NCBI GenBank assembly: GCA_019057795.1
Contig: JAHLWS010000056.1
Span: forward strand, 17,582 to 81,581
Reading direction: 5' to 3'
Source: Promethearchaeota archaeon
Lineage (GTDB): Archaea; Asgardarchaeota; Lokiarchaeia; Sigyniarchaeales; SOKP01
DNA: 64,000 nucleotides
Numbering within the stretch: position 1 is the first letter of the stretch; each line of letters starts with the position of its first letter. The notes under the pieces are model-generated. The model was not told the DNA's origin. It did not search any database and worked only from the letters and a program-made list of their open reading frames with translations. Shown piece after piece: positions 10,935 through 43,498 of the stretch. The translations under genes and the position numbers were made by a program.

Positions 10935-12468
10935 CAGTATCTAAGTATTTATTTTTTTTTATTATTATTTTCGATGGTCAACAAGCCGACATTATTTGTA
11001 ATTTATCCGACCACCCCACGTGATTTTTTCTCTGATGAAAGAAATGATTCCATCAAGTAGTCTTGATTTTGAACTAATGTCCAAACTGGTCCCTTACCTT
11101 GATTTCTACTAGAAATTTGAATTAGCTTTTTATTCATTTTCCATGAATTATAAAGGAGCATTCTTACCAACATATCCAAGTATCGGACATTATCATAGTT
11201 TGACTTCCAACGACGATTAATTCGATTTAAGTCGGAGAAACTCGTTTCGATCAACCATCGTCGACGATAAAATAGTGCCGTGCGGGACGCCCAAGAGCTT
11301 GTCTTGCCTCGAGGCTTCTCGGTAGTCATTATTAAGAATAAACGCTTTCGAGCATCGTCCAACGATATTCTTCCCGCTTTATAATCTCGCTTGACTCCTT
11401 GAAGAGTGAATTGATTTTTTGCTTTTATTATCACATAAACATGGTGAGAAAATCGACATTTTGCAGCCGTCTTGCTAGAAAACGTGTATTTCCGCACTCG
11501 AGCATGCGTTCCCTTGAGATAATCGGTAAGGAATTGCTTGATCTTTTTATATTTCTTGGCAGGAACGATGACCTCACCCCCCATTCCTTTAATCCTATCT
11601 AATAATTCAGCTCTATAGAATTCTCTATCCATCAACACGAAGCCTAACTTAAATCCTAGCTTAAGTAATTTTTCAAGAAACTTTAAGATGATGGGTATTT
11701 TAGACTGACCCGTTGCCACTTGTTCCAATCCTGCATAAAGATGTGTTTCTCGGGACAATATCGAGAAGCCGAGGTAATGACGCATTTTTAGCGTTCCTTT
11801 CTGCCGGTTCGTTCCCTTGATCATGTTATCCTCTCTCTTTCCAAAATAAGGATGCTCAGTGAAATCAATGAGCACATTTACCTTCTTTGAGATGAACCCT
11901 TGTTTTAAGGCATCCAAGAGCTGCCCATCCAAGCACCCACGTAAGATCTTCTGCGCTTTCCTAAATCCAATCTTGCGGAGATACTTGTTGACTTCTGTTT
12001 GGTGAGGTATCGCGCGCTTTCTCCGTCCATCCGCAAATATTTTTGGTCTTCCTCCTCTATGGCTCATTAATTGGGCGTTGAGCAATTCACTCGTGTCATG
12101 AATGGACCTACCTAGTAATTCTGAGAAGAAGAACACCTTCAAAAACTCCTCCTCTTCATATCTCGAATTCTTGCCCTTTTTAAAACGCCAGGTGCGAGAG
12201 GTAACTTCATCACAAAACTTTTTAAAAAAAGACAGCATATTATGATTTGAAAGAAGTGATTTTATGCCCGAGTTCCTAACCGAATTAGGAAATATATTGC
12301 CTGGTAGCATATATTAATAATATCACTTCTTTCTTAAAAGTTTTAAGGTAGATTTCCGATGGAAATCAATTTAAAGTTTGAATATAAGCATTTGTAAAAT
12401 TGAAATAAAATTTACGAAAGATAAGATTCAGTTCAAGGGGTTTCTAACATCTAAATCCTTTGATACTG
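10935..12468 (-). mobile_element. insertion sequence, ISH3-family-like (1534 bp)
   Basis: TIRs CAGTATCTAAGTATTT (10935-10950) and CAGTATCAAAGGATTT (reverse complement of 12453-12468), 14/16 identical, CAGTA end typical of the ISH3 family; flanks TTTAT/TTTTT give only an imperfect TSD in a T-tract. Confidence 0.88.
11003..12310 (-). CDS. DDE transposase (ISH3/IS4 superfamily)
   Basis: IDFT, LMDREFY, YRRRWLIETSF (Y-R-E) motifs; higher GC than flanks. Confidence 0.93.
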   Translation of the reverse strand: MLPGNIFPNSVRNSGIKSLLSNHNMLSFFKKFCDEVTSRTWRFKKGKNSRYEEEEFLKVFFFSELLGRSIHDTSELLNAQLMSHRGGRPKIFADGRRKRAIPHQTEVNKYLRKIGFRKAQKILRGCLDGQLLDALKQGFISKKVNVLIDFTEHPYFGKREDNMIKGTNRQKGTLKMRHYLGFSILSRETHLYAGLEQVATGQSKIPIILKFLEKLLKLGFKLGFVLMDREFYRAELLDRIKGMGGEVIVPAKKYKKIKQFLTDYLKGTHARVRKYTFSSKTAAKCRFSHHVYVIIKAKNQFTLQGVKRDYKAGRISLDDARKRLFLIMTTEKPRGKTSSWASRTALFYRRRWLIETSFSDLNRINRRWKSNYDNVRYLDMLVRMLLYNSWKMNKKLIQISSRNQGKGPVWTLVQNQDYLMESFLSSEKKSRGVVG

Positions 12469-12604
12469 TTTTTTTTTTATTTTAAAGGTAGATTGCTTTT
12501 TCTAAGAATGTTACACAATTAAACTTCAAAATTCTTATTTGGTGACATTAATTATTAAATTAAACTCCACAAAAAAAAAGCAAAATAGGATAAGTGTAAA
12601 TCGA

Positions 12605-13309
12605 ATGGCCGAGGAATTTGACTTTGAAAAGTATTGGCTAAATAAGTTTTCTAACTGTTTAGACGAGGTTGCTGGAGAAGAAGTAAGAAAAGATGTAATG
12701 ACCGGAAGTGAAAAGCTTTCAGATGCATCGTCCAGAGAAGAAGTTATTAACTGGTCTAATCAAGCTATGGAAAGATTAAGTTCTTTAGTTAACGACGAAA
12801 AACAAATTGGTGTCATGACGGGATGCGCTTGTAATTATTCTAAATCTCAATTACAAGAGATAAGAGAAAAGTACGAACAAACAAAGGATATTAACGTAGC
12901 ACATCGTATGCTACAGGAACAATTTGAATCTCTGCTCAAGGATACACTTAAATTAAATGAAGATCTTATCAAAAAAGTTATTAAAAAAGGATGGAGTACT
13001 GCTGGAGTTAAGGAAGGAAATGTAATTATAGCTACCAAGATTCCTAAAAGCGCTTATATTAAACAATATTTAGAAACAACTGATCCAGACGAAAAAAGGG
13101 CCATTTATTGCCATTGTCCTCGCGTTAGAGACGCTTTAAAATTGTCAATAGAGAATTTACCAGAAATTTATTGCTACTGTGGAGCAGGCTTTTTCAAAGG
13201 TATCTGGGAAGAAATCCTTCAAAAACCCGTAAAAGTTAAGGTTTTAGAATCTGTTATGAAAGGAGACGAAGTGTGCAAAATTGCAATATATCTTCCTCCG
13301 GATGCGTAA
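12605..13309 (+). CDS. DUF6144-like Cys-containing protein
   Basis: GCAC, YCHCP, YCYCGAGF, ESVMKGDEVC motifs; start moved to ATG 12605 (MAEEFDF). Confidence 0.7.
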   Translation: MAEEFDFEKYWLNKFSNCLDEVAGEEVRKDVMTGSEKLSDASSREEVINWSNQAMERLSSLVNDEKQIGVMTGCACNYSKSQLQEIREKYEQTKDINVAHRMLQEQFESLLKDTLKLNEDLIKKVIKKGWSTAGVKEGNVIIATKIPKSAYIKQYLETTDPDEKRAIYCHCPRVRDALKLSIENLPEIYCYCGAGFFKGIWEEILQKPVKVKVLESVMKGDEVCKIAIYLPPDA

Positions 13310-13330: not shown

Positions 13331-13654
13331 CACCTGAGATATATACCCACCTTTTTGTTCTATTTCTCGTCGCCAAGAAATAGGTGGGGCATCAAACTAA
13401 GCGGCCTACCTAAAACTCGTTCCAAATACTCATCGCTTTCATTTGGCCTTGCACCAAGGTTTTAGCTCGTTCCAACCGTTCCCGATTACAATTTCTCTGG
13501 CTTAAATCCAAGTCATTAATGTACGTAAAAGGGCAGTGCCGTTTCAGTTGCTAAAATACGATTTTCACCGTAGTAGTTATCTACTCCTTGCTTGGAAAGT
13601 GAGGTGAGGTTCCTCAGCAGTTCAATGACTACCGTCAGCCCCATATTTCATGTG
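13331..13654 (-). ncRNA. rnpB: archaeal RNase P RNA
   Basis: Minus strand: GAGGAACCUCACCU and AACAAAAAGGUGGGUAU form P4 with the conserved bulged U; GGGGC/GCCCC P2; GCAACUGAAAC and GCAAGGCCAA conserved segments; P1 CACAUGAAAUAU/AUAUCUCAGGUG; P19-like hairpin CUAUUUCU/AGAAAUAG. Confidence 0.93.
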
Positions 13655-13860: not shown

Positions 13861-16045
13861 CTAGGATAGAGCAAGTAAGTTTCCAAGCAACCCAGCTCCG
13901 CCATTGAACATTAGAAGTAAACCCATGAAAATCGAAGCTGTCAACGACATCACTACTAACAGCGTGTTTATACTTGGTCCTGCGGTGTCCTTTCATCGAT
14001 AATTGGTTTTCAATACCAAAGACCTTAAATGGGTCACCGACCGTATCTCCCGTTATACTAGCTTTATGTACTTCAGTCCCTTTTCCTCCAAGGTTACCGT
14101 CCTCTATCCATTTCTTTGCGTTATCCCATGCCCCACTTATGCTTTTTGCTCGAAATAAGCTATAATCTGCATTGGACATAAACACTGCAAACACAAATCC
14201 GGATAAGATAGCTCCAGCTAAGAATGCTACTAAGGAAGCTACGCCAAAAAGAATTCCAACACCAATAGGAACAGTTATAGAAATAATGCTTGGTATAATT
14301 AACTCACGTAGTGAGCCTTTTGTTGCAATATCAATTGTTTTATGGAAATCAGCGGGTTCTTCACCAGTTAATATTTTTGGATTTTCTTCAAATTGCCTAC
14401 GAATTTCATCGACCATCTTCGCTGCGTTTCTTTGGACAGCTAAGACTAACAACGCTGAAAATAGCGCTGGGATAACAACTCCTATAAAGGCACCTACTAG
14501 AACATTGACGCTTAATAAATCCACAACAGTAATACCAGCCTCTTCTGCAAAGGAAAACATTAAAGCCATGACGGTTAAGTTCGCAGCTCCAATTGCGAAT
14601 CCCTTTGTAATTGCTTTGGCGGTGTTACCAGCAGAATCTAATTTATCAGCAGTTCTAATTACTTCATCACCTAATTCTCCTTGTTCTGCAATAGCTCTTG
14701 CATTGTCAACGATTGGGCCATACGCATCATTTGTTACTATTGTTCCTACAATTGCTAACATTCCAACAGCAGCCATTGCTACACCAAATACACCAGCTAA
14801 CCAAAATGCAATTGTCATAGCAAGTATAACTCCTATTGCAGGAGGAACTACACTTAGAAGTCCATATGAGAAACCAGAAAGAATTACAACTGCATGACCT
14901 TCTTTAGCAGCATGAGCTATGTTTTGTACTGGTTTCCTATCATCCCGAGTAAAATAATCACTCGTAAAACCTAAAACTATACCAGATATAAGTCCAATCA
15001 CTGATGTGCCCCATATTCGCCATAATAACCACATTTCATCGTCTCCTAATCCAATTGATAGGAAAATCGTTATTACAGCGGATAATGCAAAATAGATTAA
15101 AGTTGCTAAATAAGTTCCTGTGTTTAAAGCTTTTCCAGGTTCTTCAGAACCTTTATATTTTATTATGTATATTCCTATAAGCGAAGCAATTAGCCCTACG
15201 CCGCAAAAAACAACTGGAGCAACAATAAATACAGAGGTTCCTATAGTTGTTAATGTTACATTTGCGAAAGGTGCTTTAATAATACCTGCTACACCAAAGG
15301 CTGCTGCAAGCATCATTGCTGCAACAATGGATGCAACATAAGAATCGAATAGGTCACTGCCCATTCCAGCTATGTCACCAACATTATCACCTACATTATC
15401 AGCGATCGTTGCTGGATTTCTTGGATCATCTTCAGGTAGATTGTATTCAGCTTTTCCTACTAAATCAGCACCTACATCTGCTGTTTTCGTAAAAATTCCA
15501 CCGCCACACTTCATAAATAAAGCTATACTACTGGCACCGAAGCTAAACCCTAACACAACAAGAGGAGACTGAAAAATCCAATAGATTATTGATACGCCTA
15601 TTAAAGCAACTCCCACCACGGCTAAACCCATTACTGCTCCTCCAAAAAATGCTACATCGAAACCGGCTTTTGTGCCCTTGGTACAACCTTGTGCTGCTCT
15701 CGTATTTGCTTTAACACCAACATACATCCCTAACCAACCTGCGAGCATAGAACCCACACAACCAATTAAGTACGCTATCGCTTGTTCCCAATTTAATGTC
15801 CCAGGATTCGTCATATTAGGAAGTAAGAATAACATTACTAAAAAAAGTACTCCTACAAAGATTCCAAGAACTTTATATTGGACTTTTAAGTATGTTTTAG
15901 CCCCTTCTTCGATATATCCAGCGACTTCTTGCATTCTTTCGTTGCCAGGATCTTCTTTTAAAACTAAAGATCTAAAGTATACAGCAAGAACGATTGAAAT
16001 TATCCCTGCGATTAGTGCAACAATTAAAATTATTGGCACTGCCAT
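13861..16045 (-). CDS. hppA: membrane H+-translocating pyrophosphatase (K+-independent type), spliced: complement(join(13861..13991,14026..14136,14167..16045)), 706 aa
   Basis: GGGIFTKTADVGADLVGK, EDDPRN, DNVGDNVGD, GNTAKA (Lys indicates K+-independent); removing two inserts restores MSNAGGAWDNAKK and GDTVGDPFKDTAGPSIN plus a final TM helix ending at TAG 13861-13863; exon sum 2121 nt. Confidence 0.95.
13992..14025 (-). other. putative BHB mRNA intron 2 of hppA (34 nt, frame-disrupting)
   Basis: Intron AGGUCUUUGGUAUUGAAAACCAAUUAUCGAUGAA; central helix CAUU/GAUG, bulges UA^A and AA^A, exon helix CGGUG-A-CC/GG-A-CACCG, intron hairpin UUGGU/ACCAA; ligation gives UUU A|AG GAC (F-K-D). Confidence 0.88.
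14137..14166 (-). other. putative BHB mRNA intron 1 of hppA (30 nt, in frame)
   Basis: Intron AUUAUAGCUUAUUUCGAGCAAAAAGCAUAA; central helix AUGC/GCAU, bulges AG^A and AA^G, exon helix AUGUCCA/UGG(G)GCAU; ligation gives GCA G|GU GGG (A-G-G). Confidence 0.85.
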
Positions 16046-42107: not shown

Positions 42108-43498
42108 CCCGGACTCACCAATGCGTTTTTAACTCTAATATAACTACCACCAGAAGTAACGGGAACGAAATCTTCACTACCTTTTCCACATGTCCCGCCA
42201 TCAAGTTTCGTAGGGTCCTTACTTACAGCATCGATATTCTTTAATAATTCAAGAACATCTCCACTTAGAGCTGTAGCCTTCAAAATTTTTGTTTTTTCCC
42301 CATTTTCAATTAGATACGCTTTTTTTGATGTGCATTGCATGCCTCCGCCTAGAGGGTCTTCCATTCCAAAAAACCCATGAACCAACATTATTCCTTCGTT
42401 GATTTCTGAGATAATTTCATTCAGATCATAATCACCAGAACCGAAATAAGTATTTGACATTCTAACATTGATAGGATGGGCGAAACTTTCTCGTCTTCCA
42501 TTTCCTTGAGGGATGGCACTTAAATCTGAGGCAGATCTCCTGTCATATATGTAATTTTTCAATATACCATTTTCTACTAAAACATTGCTACCTGCTTTTA
42601 TTCCTTCGTCATCAAAAAAGTAAGAACCTAATTTTTTCTCTAACGATGGTGTGTCGTAGATCGAGCAGATATTGGAAGCAACTTGCTTATTTAGGTGTTG
42701 TTTTAAATAGCTTCGATCTCTTAATATTTGATCTGCTTCCAAACCATGCCCAAAACTTTCATGAGCAATCAATCCCGCCATTGGGGGGTCTAAAATGATT
42801 GTTCGTCTTCCTGAGGGGGGTAATTCAGCTTTTAACATTTCAAGAGAGTTTTTAACCGTTTTTTCTAATAATTCATAATCAAATAAATCAAAAATTTCAT
42901 ATCCAATCTCTCCAGAAATAATCGAATAATCATAATCAACAACAGATCCTTCTTTAGCAATAGGTAAAACCATAATTCGTACACGTGGAATTACTTGTCT
43001 CAATTTGCATCCTTCATTATTGACGAAGATTCGCTCAATTATAAATTCCATGTACTTTACTTGAACATTAATAATTCTCTCGTCGTAATTCTTGATATAA
43101 CCATATATTTCCCTTACTTTCTTGATTTTATCCTCTATAGGTATGTTCGCAGGATCGATTTTAGGCTTAATCTCTTTGTTTAATTCCCAGCCTTCGAATT
43201 CCGCTATTGCATCTCCCTTTTTGGTCAATTTTGGGATCTTATTTTTAATAACGCCAATATCAGAACTCTCTTCAATTGCTATTTCTTTCCATATTCCTGA
43301 AAATGTACGAGCAACTATACCCGATTTTTTAGTATTAACTGAAAAGTTTTCAGAGGAGCGGGTTTTTGCTATGGTTGTGGACGAAACCGAATCGTATAAG
43401 ATGTCAAAATATTGATCGCGACGATTATAGTGGTTCGTTATTTCTTCAAATTCAGAAAAAATTTCTTCGTAAGATTTGTCACTCACATATTTCACCAA
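42104..43498 (-). CDS. tldD: TldD metalloprotease
   Basis: HESFGHGLEAD, DDEG, GNGRRE, RMSNT, CGK. Confidence 0.92.
   Translation of the reverse strand: MVKYVSDKSYEEIFSEFEEITNHYNRRDQYFDILYDSVSSTTIAKTRSSENFSVNTKKSGIVARTFSGIWKEIAIEESSDIGVIKNKIPKLTKKGDAIAEFEGWELNKEIKPKIDPANIPIEDKIKKVREIYGYIKNYDERIINVQVKYMEFIIERIFVNNEGCKLRQVIPRVRIMVLPIAKEGSVVDYDYSIISGEIGYEIFDLFDYELLEKTVKNSLEMLKAELPPSGRRTIILDPPMAGLIAHESFGHGLEADQILRDRSYLKQHLNKQVASNICSIYDTPSLEKKLGSYFFDDEGIKAGSNVLVENGILKNYIYDRRSASDLSAIPQGNGRRESFAHPINVRMSNTYFGSGDYDLNEIISEINEGIMLVHGFFGMEDPLGGGMQCTSKKAYLIENGEKTKILKATALSGDVLELLKNIDAVSKDPTKLDGGTCGKGSEDFVPVTSGGSYIRVKNALVSPG

What the first reader, a model, noticed from the sequence alone, without database searches (positions are those of the whole stretch)
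13992..14025. Intron 2 (34 nt) shifts the frame, so splicing is obligatory for a functional pump
Seen: unspliced, the frame reads GDPFK-VFGIENQLSMK-GHRRTKYKH..., losing DTAGPSIN and the last TM helix. Spliced, it reads DTAGPSINTLLVVMSLTASIFMGLLLMFNGGAGLLGNLLALS*. The downstream exon is still a clean hydrophobic helix, which argues against pseudogene decay. The insert is bounded by an AAGG direct repeat, so the protein alone allows several registers; the BHB (CAUU/GAUG helix, UA^A and AA^A bulges, 7-bp exon helix) picks one of them. Inference: EndA activity could gate PPase expression.
Basis: partly seen in the sequence, partly recalled or inferred. Interest (0 to 1): 0.85.

Follow-up and report, generated by a model that had tools for sequence, protein, structure and literature searches.

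The report
tRNA-type intron in Asgard pyrophosphatase gene
The only pyrophosphatase gene of this Loki-type Asgard archaeon is interrupted near its end by a 34-base insert shaped like a tRNA intron, and comparison with relatives shows that the insert must be removed from the mRNA to make a working pump, a kind of splicing that the papers I could search document for only one archaeal coding sequence (cbf5).

Summary
hppA lies on the minus strand at 16045-13861. It carries a 34-nt insert (14025-13992) between GDPFK and DTAGPSIN, which shifts the frame.

I found no RNA data, but the comparative evidence is strong:
- An insert sits at the same site in four other lineages of the genus, from independent assemblies. 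It is always 31 or 34 nt and always frame-shifting.
- The intron interior has diverged, but the central helix CAUU/GAUG is invariant and the intron helix shows compensatory changes.
- Two metagenome contigs carry the identical 34 nt.
- Among the three alleles sharing that intron, exon 3 has dS 0.30-0.35 and dN 0-0.02 in the spliced frame. The unspliced frame takes 8-9 amino-acid changes and a stop.
- The genome has two EndA paralogues, RtcB and no other pyrophosphatase.
- Seventeen intronless hppA alleles from the same genus show a patchy distribution, meaning loss or lateral spread.

The idea that EndA "gates" expression is untested.

This scan has already noted similar mRNA mini-introns elsewhere in this genome and in other Asgard genomes, so this is a well-supported further case, not a first.

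The parts
14167..16045 (-). hppA exon 1 (start ATG at 16045)
   Evidence: ORF list. Pfam H_PPase E 1.9e-217. The start aligns with relatives.
14137..14166 (-). Intron 1: 30 nt, in frame, inside the motif SNA|GGAWDNAKK
   Evidence: Appears as a 10-residue gap in the alignment to solved PPase 8B37. Absent from 28 relatives. BHB paired in 87.5% of cells with covariation, including an exon/intron compensatory change in the central helix.
14026..14136 (-). hppA exon 2 (111 nt), ending at the Lys that aligns with K730 of Vigna radiata H+-PPase
13992..14025 (-). Intron 2: 34 nt, frame-shifting (the finding)
13861..13991 (-). hppA exon 3: the last two bases of the Lys codon, 42 codons (DTAGPSIN plus the last membrane helix) and the stop at 13863-13861
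   Evidence: The spliced tail aligns end to end with intronless relatives. dN 0-0.022 against dS 0.30-0.35.
13984..14038 (-). Full BHB motif of intron 2, from the outer exon helix on one side to the other
   Evidence: Hand pairing, constrained fold and pair counts.
14028..14031 (-). Central helix, exon strand CAUU (codons Pro-Phe)
   Evidence: Invariant in all 7 intron-bearing alleles. Pro is CCA in 7/7 intron-bearing alleles against 5/17 intronless alleles.
13994..13997 (-). Central helix, intron strand GAUG
   Evidence: Invariant in all lineages, although the rest of the intron has diverged.

Best explanation
The 34-nt insert is a genuine archaeal bulge-helix-bulge intron inside the coding sequence of the membrane pyrophosphatase gene hppA. 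It is one of two such introns, 111 nt apart.

Inferred mechanism: in the pre-mRNA, exon bases (codons Gly-Asp-Pro-Phe and Asp-Thr) pair with each other and with the 3' end of the intron. This presents two 3-nt bulges separated by a 4-bp helix. The two-subunit splicing endonuclease EndA cuts after the second base of each bulge, between 14026/14025 and between 13992/13991. RtcB then joins the exons, restoring Lys-Asp and the frame for DTAGPSIN and the last membrane helix.

Shown here: the structure, its conservation and covariation, selection on the spliced frame, and the presence of the enzymes. Inferred: the cleavage and ligation themselves. Without splicing, the product lacks the last catalytic motif and helix 16 and is presumably inactive. 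Splicing is most simply constitutive.
For: 1. Same-site inserts occur in four other lineages of the genus, from independent sources: a JGI metagenome contig (L033), Logan assemblies (L034/L035), an NCBI genome assembly (L036) and JGI contigs (L038/L042). L039 and L040 carry the identical 34 nt. Lengths are 31 or 34, always 1 mod 3.
2. BHB pair counts: 87.4% of cells are paired, against 27-55% when partners are slid. Five pairs change on both sides, all in the intron helix. The central helix is invariant.
3. Spliced ORFs are intact in all intron-bearing alleles, at 697-710 aa.
4. For exon 3 among own, L039 and L040, dS is 0.30-0.35 and dN 0-0.022. There are 0-2 amino-acid changes in the spliced frame against 8-9 plus a stop in the unspliced frame.
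5. Synonymous exon sites that pair in the BHB are fixed in intron-bearing alleles and free in intronless ones: GGT 7/7 vs 4/17, CCA 7/7 vs 5/17. Related alleles are not independent, so these ratios overstate the signal somewhat.
6. Both introns are far more conserved than four-fold sites: 0-2 differences in 64 nt against 15-16%.
7. Enzymes: two EndA paralogues of 200 and 201 aa. By eye, and from my memory of the motif, one keeps the Tyr/His/Lys pattern and the other lacks the His. There is one RtcB. PMC5829648 reports two-subunit EndA with the broad-specificity L1 loop in Asgard.
8. hppA is the only pyrophosphatase found in an assembly estimated 100% complete: no PF00719, no DHHA2, one H_PPase.
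9. The only rpl11 gene of the assembly also needs two short inserts removed to encode its conserved N-domain.
Against: No RNA, circular-intron or peptide evidence could be obtained. No spliced copy turned up among database proteins.

The free minimum-energy fold is not the BHB; it is 1 kcal/mol better. In two lineages the motif is relaxed. L038 has no intron helix next to the bulge, and L036 has a C.A mismatch closing the exon helix.

All 17 intronless same-genus alleles, including two at 94-95% protein identity, lack both introns. The distribution therefore needs either about five precise losses or lateral spread.

My ab initio genome-wide BHB scans gave no enrichment over controls.
Confidence: 0.85

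Rival explanations
1. Recent pseudogene: the 30- and 34-nt inserts are insertion scars that killed hppA, and the BHB shape is coincidental.
For: The closest species representatives lack both inserts. No RNA evidence exists.
Against: The same two sites are occupied in five lineages with diverged insert sequences. No other lesion occurs in any intron-bearing allele. There is strong purifying selection on exon 3 in the spliced frame after the intron was already present. The structure shows covariation. This is the only pyrophosphatase in the genome.
Confidence: 0.02
2. Translational bypass or programmed frameshifting: ribosomes hop over the 34 nt from the AAG take-off codon to the matching AAG landing codon, as in phage T4 gene 60, without any RNA cutting.
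For: In the own sequence the AAGG repeat gives matching take-off and landing Lys codons.
Against: In L033 the codon before GAC in the exon-3 frame is TAG. In L038 the codon after Phe is AAT, and no matching landing codon exists. Intron 1 has no repeat at all. The conserved features are base pairs of a BHB, not hop signals. No stop codon follows the take-off site.
Confidence: 0.03
3. Regulated switch: the intron is a real BHB intron, but splicing is conditional, so EndA/RtcB activity sets how much functional pump is made.
For: Removal of the frame-shifting intron changes the C-terminus, as in XBP1. Both introns are more conserved than synonymous sites, even at unpaired positions, which might reflect an extra function.
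Against: There is no evidence of condition dependence. The unspliced tail is not conserved, with a stop in L039 and 8-9 changes, so no alternative isoform is maintained. Close relatives do well without the introns.
Confidence: 0.1
4. Assembly or sequencing artefact in this metagenome-assembled genome.
For: The assembly has an estimated 7.5% contamination. Reads could not be inspected.
Against: The identical 34 nt occurs in two independent metagenome contigs whose exons differ from the own sequence by about 6%. Homologous inserts occur in four further assemblies.
Confidence: 0.005

Closest known systems
BHB intron in the cbf5 pre-mRNA of Crenarchaeota (Watanabe 2002; Yoshinari 2006; Yokobori 2009, PMC2738675)
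   Same: A short BHB intron inside a coding sequence. It occurs in an archaeon with a two-subunit EndA and shows patchy gain and loss among relatives.
   Different: A different gene (a membrane pyrophosphatase) and a different phylum (Asgard). There are two introns in one gene. cbf5 splicing was shown experimentally; here it is inferred. cbf5 of this genome lies in one open frame.
Archaeal tRNA and rRNA BHB introns (Marck and Grosjean 2003)
   Same: The same hBHBh' geometry (3-nt bulges, 4-bp helix), the same size range and the same presumed enzymes.
   Different: The host is an mRNA. The exon half of the motif is built from codons, so synonymous sites are constrained.
BHB intron in the 5' UTR of Haloferax volcanii HVO_1309 (PMC7714728)
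   Same: An mRNA processed by EndA.
   Different: That intron lies in an untranslated leader and does not affect the reading frame. That paper states cbf5 is the only other mRNA case reported.
HAC1/XBP1 unconventional mRNA splicing in eukaryotes (my own knowledge)
   Same: A spliceosome-independent, very short intron whose removal shifts the frame of the C-terminus. Exons are joined by RtcB in animals.
   Different: The nuclease is IRE1 acting on paired stem-loops, not EndA on a BHB, and the splice is stress-regulated. No regulation is shown here.
Translational bypass of phage T4 gene 60 (my own knowledge)
   Same: A short untranslated gap in a coding sequence, bounded by matching codons in the own allele.
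   Different: Matching codons are missing in L033 and L038. No stop follows the take-off site. The conserved features are base pairs.

Membership tests
Archaeal BHB intron (EndA substrate) | [quoted passage not shown] | tested here: met
   CAUU/GAUG lies between UA|A and AA|A. The constrained fold is -18.0 kcal/mol. The central helix is paired in 7/7 alleles.
Archaeal BHB intron (EndA substrate) | Flanking exon helix (h) and intron helix (h') | tested here: met
   In the own allele h is 2 bp, an A.A mismatch, then 4 bp, and h' is 3 bp plus a 5-bp hairpin. The motif is relaxed in L038 (h' missing) and L036 (first h pair missing).
Archaeal BHB intron (EndA substrate) | Cuts after the second bulge base give a functional product | tested here: met
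   The predicted junction restores Lys-Asp and the frame. The spliced tail aligns with intronless relatives.
Archaeal BHB intron (EndA substrate) | Structure maintained in evolution | tested here: met
   Five pairs change on both sides. 87.4% of cells are paired against 27-55% when slid.
Archaeal BHB intron (EndA substrate) | Splicing enzymes present (EndA, RtcB) | tested here: met
   Two EndA paralogues and one RtcB in the own genome.
Archaeal BHB intron (EndA substrate) | Excision observed in RNA, or cleavage by EndA in vitro | not testable with these tools
No spliced copy was found among database proteins.
cbf5-type pre-mRNA intron | Located in the cbf5/TruB gene | tested here: not met
   The host gene is hppA. 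TruB_N of this genome lies in one 417-aa open frame.
Translational bypass (gene 60 type) | Matching take-off and landing codons flanking the gap | tested here: not met
   They match in the own allele. In L033 the landing codon is TAG, and L038 has none.
Membrane-bound pyrophosphatase (PF03030) | Full-length match to the family profile, including the C-terminal motif and helix | tested here: met
   Unspliced, the match covers profile positions 1-624 of 645. The spliced tail, DTAGPSIN and onward, aligns with 28 relatives. Exon 2 ends at K730 of structure 4A01.

The most novel reading that the evidence does not exclude
The hppA introns belong to a heritable, turning-over population of tRNA-type mini-introns in protein-coding genes of Loki-type Asgard archaea. 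They are spliced by EndA and RtcB. They are inherited for long periods and removed precisely, and here two neighbouring introns near the 3' end were lost together, as expected for recombination with a spliced RNA copy. That would make these archaea, the closest prokaryotic relatives of eukaryotes, organisms with routine spliceosome-independent mRNA splicing and eukaryote-like intron loss.
Probability: 0.45. Interest if true: 0.85.

Novelty: new member of a known kind. Interest (0 to 1): 0.66.

Why it matters
In the papers I could search, BHB splicing of an archaeal coding sequence is documented only for cbf5 of Crenarchaeota (PMC2738675; stated again in PMC7714728). Here an Asgard archaeon depends on it for its only pyrophosphatase, with two introns in one gene.

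The case comes with a ready natural experiment: intron-bearing and intronless alleles differ by only about 6%. That makes several things directly testable:
- how translation-coupled archaeal mRNAs get spliced;
- how exon codon choice is constrained by an RNA motif;
- how such introns are gained and lost in the lineage nearest to eukaryotes.

It also matters for annotation. Gene callers report these genes as frameshifted or with false C-termini (P0001-P0003).

Tried and rejected
- Search for a spliced RNA copy through the protein collection, using an intronless relative's C-terminus as query. The best hit is another intronless relative at 95-96% identity, and none equals the own spliced protein.
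- Copies of either insert elsewhere in the genome: none beyond chance 11-17-mers, so this is not a repeated element.
- Pattern scans of the species-representative genome collection: no true hit, and one chance match in Anabaena.
- Two ab initio genome-wide scans (strict BHB plus open frames and codon scores). Counts were 210 against 196-216, and 304 against 243-296, for shifted-cut controls. Top candidates were gene junctions, and the strict rule missed the target itself. The method is too weak to count introns.
- Exon 3 alone against solved structures: no match, because the query is too short and hydrophobic.
- Rejected explanations: pseudogene, translational bypass and assembly artefact (see rival explanations), and a group I/II or intein-type element (the insert is too small and shifts the frame).
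- A recent import of the 3' end from a distant lineage. The nearest neighbours of the own 3' segment are still the five close alleles.

Full report
**What is there.** The window is archaeal: an RNase P RNA of the archaeal type lies at 13331-13654. On the minus strand, 16045-13835 is an open frame of 736 codons that matches the membrane pyrophosphatase family (PF03030, E 1.9e-217). The match stops at profile position 624 of 645. On that strand GDPFK ends with AAG at 14026-14024. Then come 34 nt, and then the codons for DTAGPSIN and a hydrophobic helix in another frame, ending at the stop 13863-13861. The alignment to solved pumps ends exactly at the Lys equivalent to K730 of the Vigna radiata enzyme (4A01). 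The same alignment shows a second insert, of 10 residues, as a gap inside SNA|GGAWDNAKK; this is intron 1 (14166-14137, 30 nt).

**The structure.** With the flanks, the insert forms an hBHBh' motif:
- the exon helix is GGUG/CACC, then an A.A mismatch, then CC/GG;
- the central helix is CAUU/GAUG, with one U.G pair;
- the bulges are UA|A and AA|A;
- the intron helix is GGU/AUC followed by a 5-bp hairpin.

Cutting after the second base of each bulge gives intron 14025-13992. This is one of the five registers that the AAGG redundancy allows. The exon helix is thus six pairs with a mismatch, not seven clean pairs. The unconstrained minimum-energy fold (-19.0 kcal/mol, z -1.29) pairs slightly differently, and the BHB costs -18.0. 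A shuffled insert at this site gives a full central helix and at least 3 bp of intron helix in 0.16% of trials. On its own this is suggestive, not decisive.

**Relatives without the insert.** In 28 species representatives, GDPFK is followed directly by DTAGPS, and none has intron 1. Seventeen are from the same genus (77-95% protein identity over the query) and eleven from the same order. Neither insert has another copy in the genome.

**Relatives with the insert.** I searched the large protein collection with the frameshifted C-terminus. Three clusters have inserts at the same two sites, and I fetched their DNA. A DNA pattern spanning the intron found four more metagenome contigs. In total:
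- L039 and L040 carry the identical 34-nt intron 2, and an intron 1 differing at 1-2 bases. Their exons differ from the own sequence by about 6%.
- L033, L036 and L038/L042 carry a 31-nt intron 2 and a 30-nt intron 1.
- L034/L035 carry the 31-nt intron 2 only.

All lengths are 1 mod 3. After removal of the inserts, all these genes are intact, at 697-710 codons. The identical intron in independent assemblies rules out an assembly artefact.

**Conservation of the motif.** The intron interiors are diverged almost beyond alignment, yet GAUG at the 3' end is invariant and pairs with the exon's CAUU. Counted on the alignment, 87.4% of cells are paired, against 27-55% when partners are slid by 1-3 columns. 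Five pairs, all in the intron helix, change on both sides (AU/GC, UA/CG and so on). Intron 1 behaves the same way: 87.5% against 37-50%, with four pairs changing on both sides. One of these is a UA-to-CG change in its central helix, where the exon base is a synonymous Asn position and the partner is intronic.

Two lineages have relaxed motifs. L038 lacks an intron helix next to the bulge, and L036 has a C.A mismatch closing the exon helix. That is within what broad-specificity two-subunit EndA is reported to accept (PMC5829648).

Exon synonymous sites that pair in the BHB are fixed in intron-bearing alleles and variable in intronless ones: Gly GGT 7/7 against 4/17, and Pro CCA 7/7 against 5/17. 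Related alleles are not independent, so these ratios overstate the signal somewhat.

Among the three alleles that share the 34-nt intron, exon 3 has dS 0.30-0.35 and dN 0-0.022; for the whole gene, dN/dS is 0.14-0.17. The 9-11 nucleotide differences in exon 3 cause 0-2 amino-acid changes in the spliced frame. In the unspliced frame they cause 8-9 changes, and L039 has a premature stop there. Selection has therefore acted on the spliced frame while the intron was present. This excludes neutral decay. It also shows that the long unspliced tail of this allele is not a maintained isoform.

**Rival mechanisms.** Translational bypass fits the own allele, which has matching AAG codons. It fails in L033, where TAG precedes GAC, and in L038, which has no matching codon. 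It also cannot explain intron 1. The insert is far too small for a self-splicing intron, and it shifts the frame, so it is not an intein.

**Machinery and need.** The genome (4.95 Mb, estimated 100% complete) has two EndA paralogues of 200 and 201 residues. By eye, one has the Tyr/His/Lys pattern and one lacks the His, which fits the catalytic and structural subunits. That motif reading is from my own knowledge. The genome has one RtcB. It has a single H_PPase gene, no family I pyrophosphatase and no DHHA2 domain, so the interrupted gene is the only pyrophosphatase found.

As a partial check of earlier notes from this scan, I looked at rpl11. Its Pfam N-domain match covers only positions 26-58. 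Direct reading shows the conserved GGPP / IGPAVGPTGIN / IKDVVDAVNEKT pieces separated by a 30-nt insert carrying a stop and by a second insert of about 28 nt that shifts the frame. An essential single-copy gene in the same state supports routine mRNA splicing in this organism. cbf5, the classic host of such an intron, lies in one open frame here.

**History.** In the protein tree, all intron-bearing alleles fall inside the genus clade (100/100) but are scattered among intronless ones:
- L033 and L034 branch near the base.
- L036 sits beside L012.
- L038 sits beside L015, with weak support.
- A tight five-allele group mixes three intron-bearing alleles (own, L039, L040) with two intronless ones (L004, L005).

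The body of the gene in that group is star-like and mosaic, at about 6% divergence. In the last 330 nt, however, the intron-bearing three group together and the intronless two group together. The 3' ends of the introns resemble each other across four lineages, which argues for one origin. The simplest account is presence early in the genus followed by about five precise losses. One of these losses removed both neighbouring introns at once. Lateral spread by recombination is the alternative, and I cannot separate the two.

Both introns are much more conserved than four-fold sites in the close trio: 0-2 differences in 64 nt against 15-16% (P about 0.0002-0.002). This holds even at unpaired positions, and I cannot fully explain it.

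**What is known.** In the library I could search, BHB splicing inside an archaeal coding sequence is documented only for cbf5 of Crenarchaeota (PMC2738675). A 2020 study of EndA substrates in Haloferax added one 5' UTR intron and stated that cbf5 was the only other mRNA case (PMC7714728). A 2026 preprint on Asgard tRNA introns does not deal with mRNAs, and two further searches found no report for Asgard protein genes. Within this scan, similar mini-introns have already been noted in this genome and in many other Asgard genomes. I treated those notes as leads only.

**Verdict.** The reading as an obligatory BHB intron is supported by comparative evidence (confidence 0.85) but not yet by RNA. 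The gating idea is untested. This is a new member of a known kind. Its value is raised by the organism, by the paired introns, and by very close intronless alleles that make experiments straightforward.

Noticed in passing
window 14137-14166 (minus): Intron 1 of hppA: 30 nt, in frame, no stop, inside SNA|GGAWDNAKK. Its BHB is canonical in the own allele, L033 and L036. The first pair of the central helix is lost in L039/L040 (A.A) and L038 (A.G).
   Followed up: yes
introns of window, L039:6467-6641, L040:3255-3429: Both introns are far more conserved than four-fold degenerate sites among the three close alleles: 0-2 differences in 64 nt against 15-16%. This holds even in loops, while the adjacent exon 3 has dS 0.30-0.35. 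Structural constraint alone does not obviously explain it.
   Followed up: partly
L004, L005 versus window, L039, L040: In a group of five alleles about 6% apart, two lack both introns. In the last 330 nt the intronless pair and the intron-bearing trio form separate haplotype groups, as if both neighbouring 3' introns were lost in one event. L034 lacks intron 1 only.
   Followed up: partly
G000 C73:108700-108970 (minus); L046: The only rpl11 gene has its conserved N-domain split by a 30-nt insert carrying a stop and by a second frame-shifting insert of about 28 nt. The Pfam N-domain match covers only positions 26-58.
   Followed up: partly
window 13331-13654 (minus): An archaeal RNase P RNA gene (123.5 bits) lies about 200 nt downstream of the hppA stop, on the same strand.
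   Followed up: no
window 11003-12310 (minus): A 435-codon ORF with a DDE transposase domain (PF01609), probably an insertion sequence.
   Followed up: no
window 12539-13309 (plus): A 256-codon ORF with a DUF6144 domain and a weak V4R-like C-terminus rich in Cys. It sits between the transposase and the RNase P RNA.
   Followed up: no
window 13864-13989 and about 14700 (minus): The pump has the GNTAKAITKG signature that earlier notes link to K+-independence. In exon 3 it reads GPSINTLLVVM, with Val where many pumps have the helix-16 gate Lys (lead from earlier notes; seen directly in the ORF, not analysed).
   Followed up: no
window 42113-42153 (minus): My ab initio scan flagged a 41-nt strict-BHB candidate joining two long open frames. 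It looks like a gene junction and was not verified.
   Followed up: no
P0001, P0002, P0003: Public gene calls for intron-bearing hppA alleles carry false frameshifted C-termini (for example ...GDPFK then GHRRTKYQH...), so these introns are currently annotated as protein sequence.
   Followed up: yes
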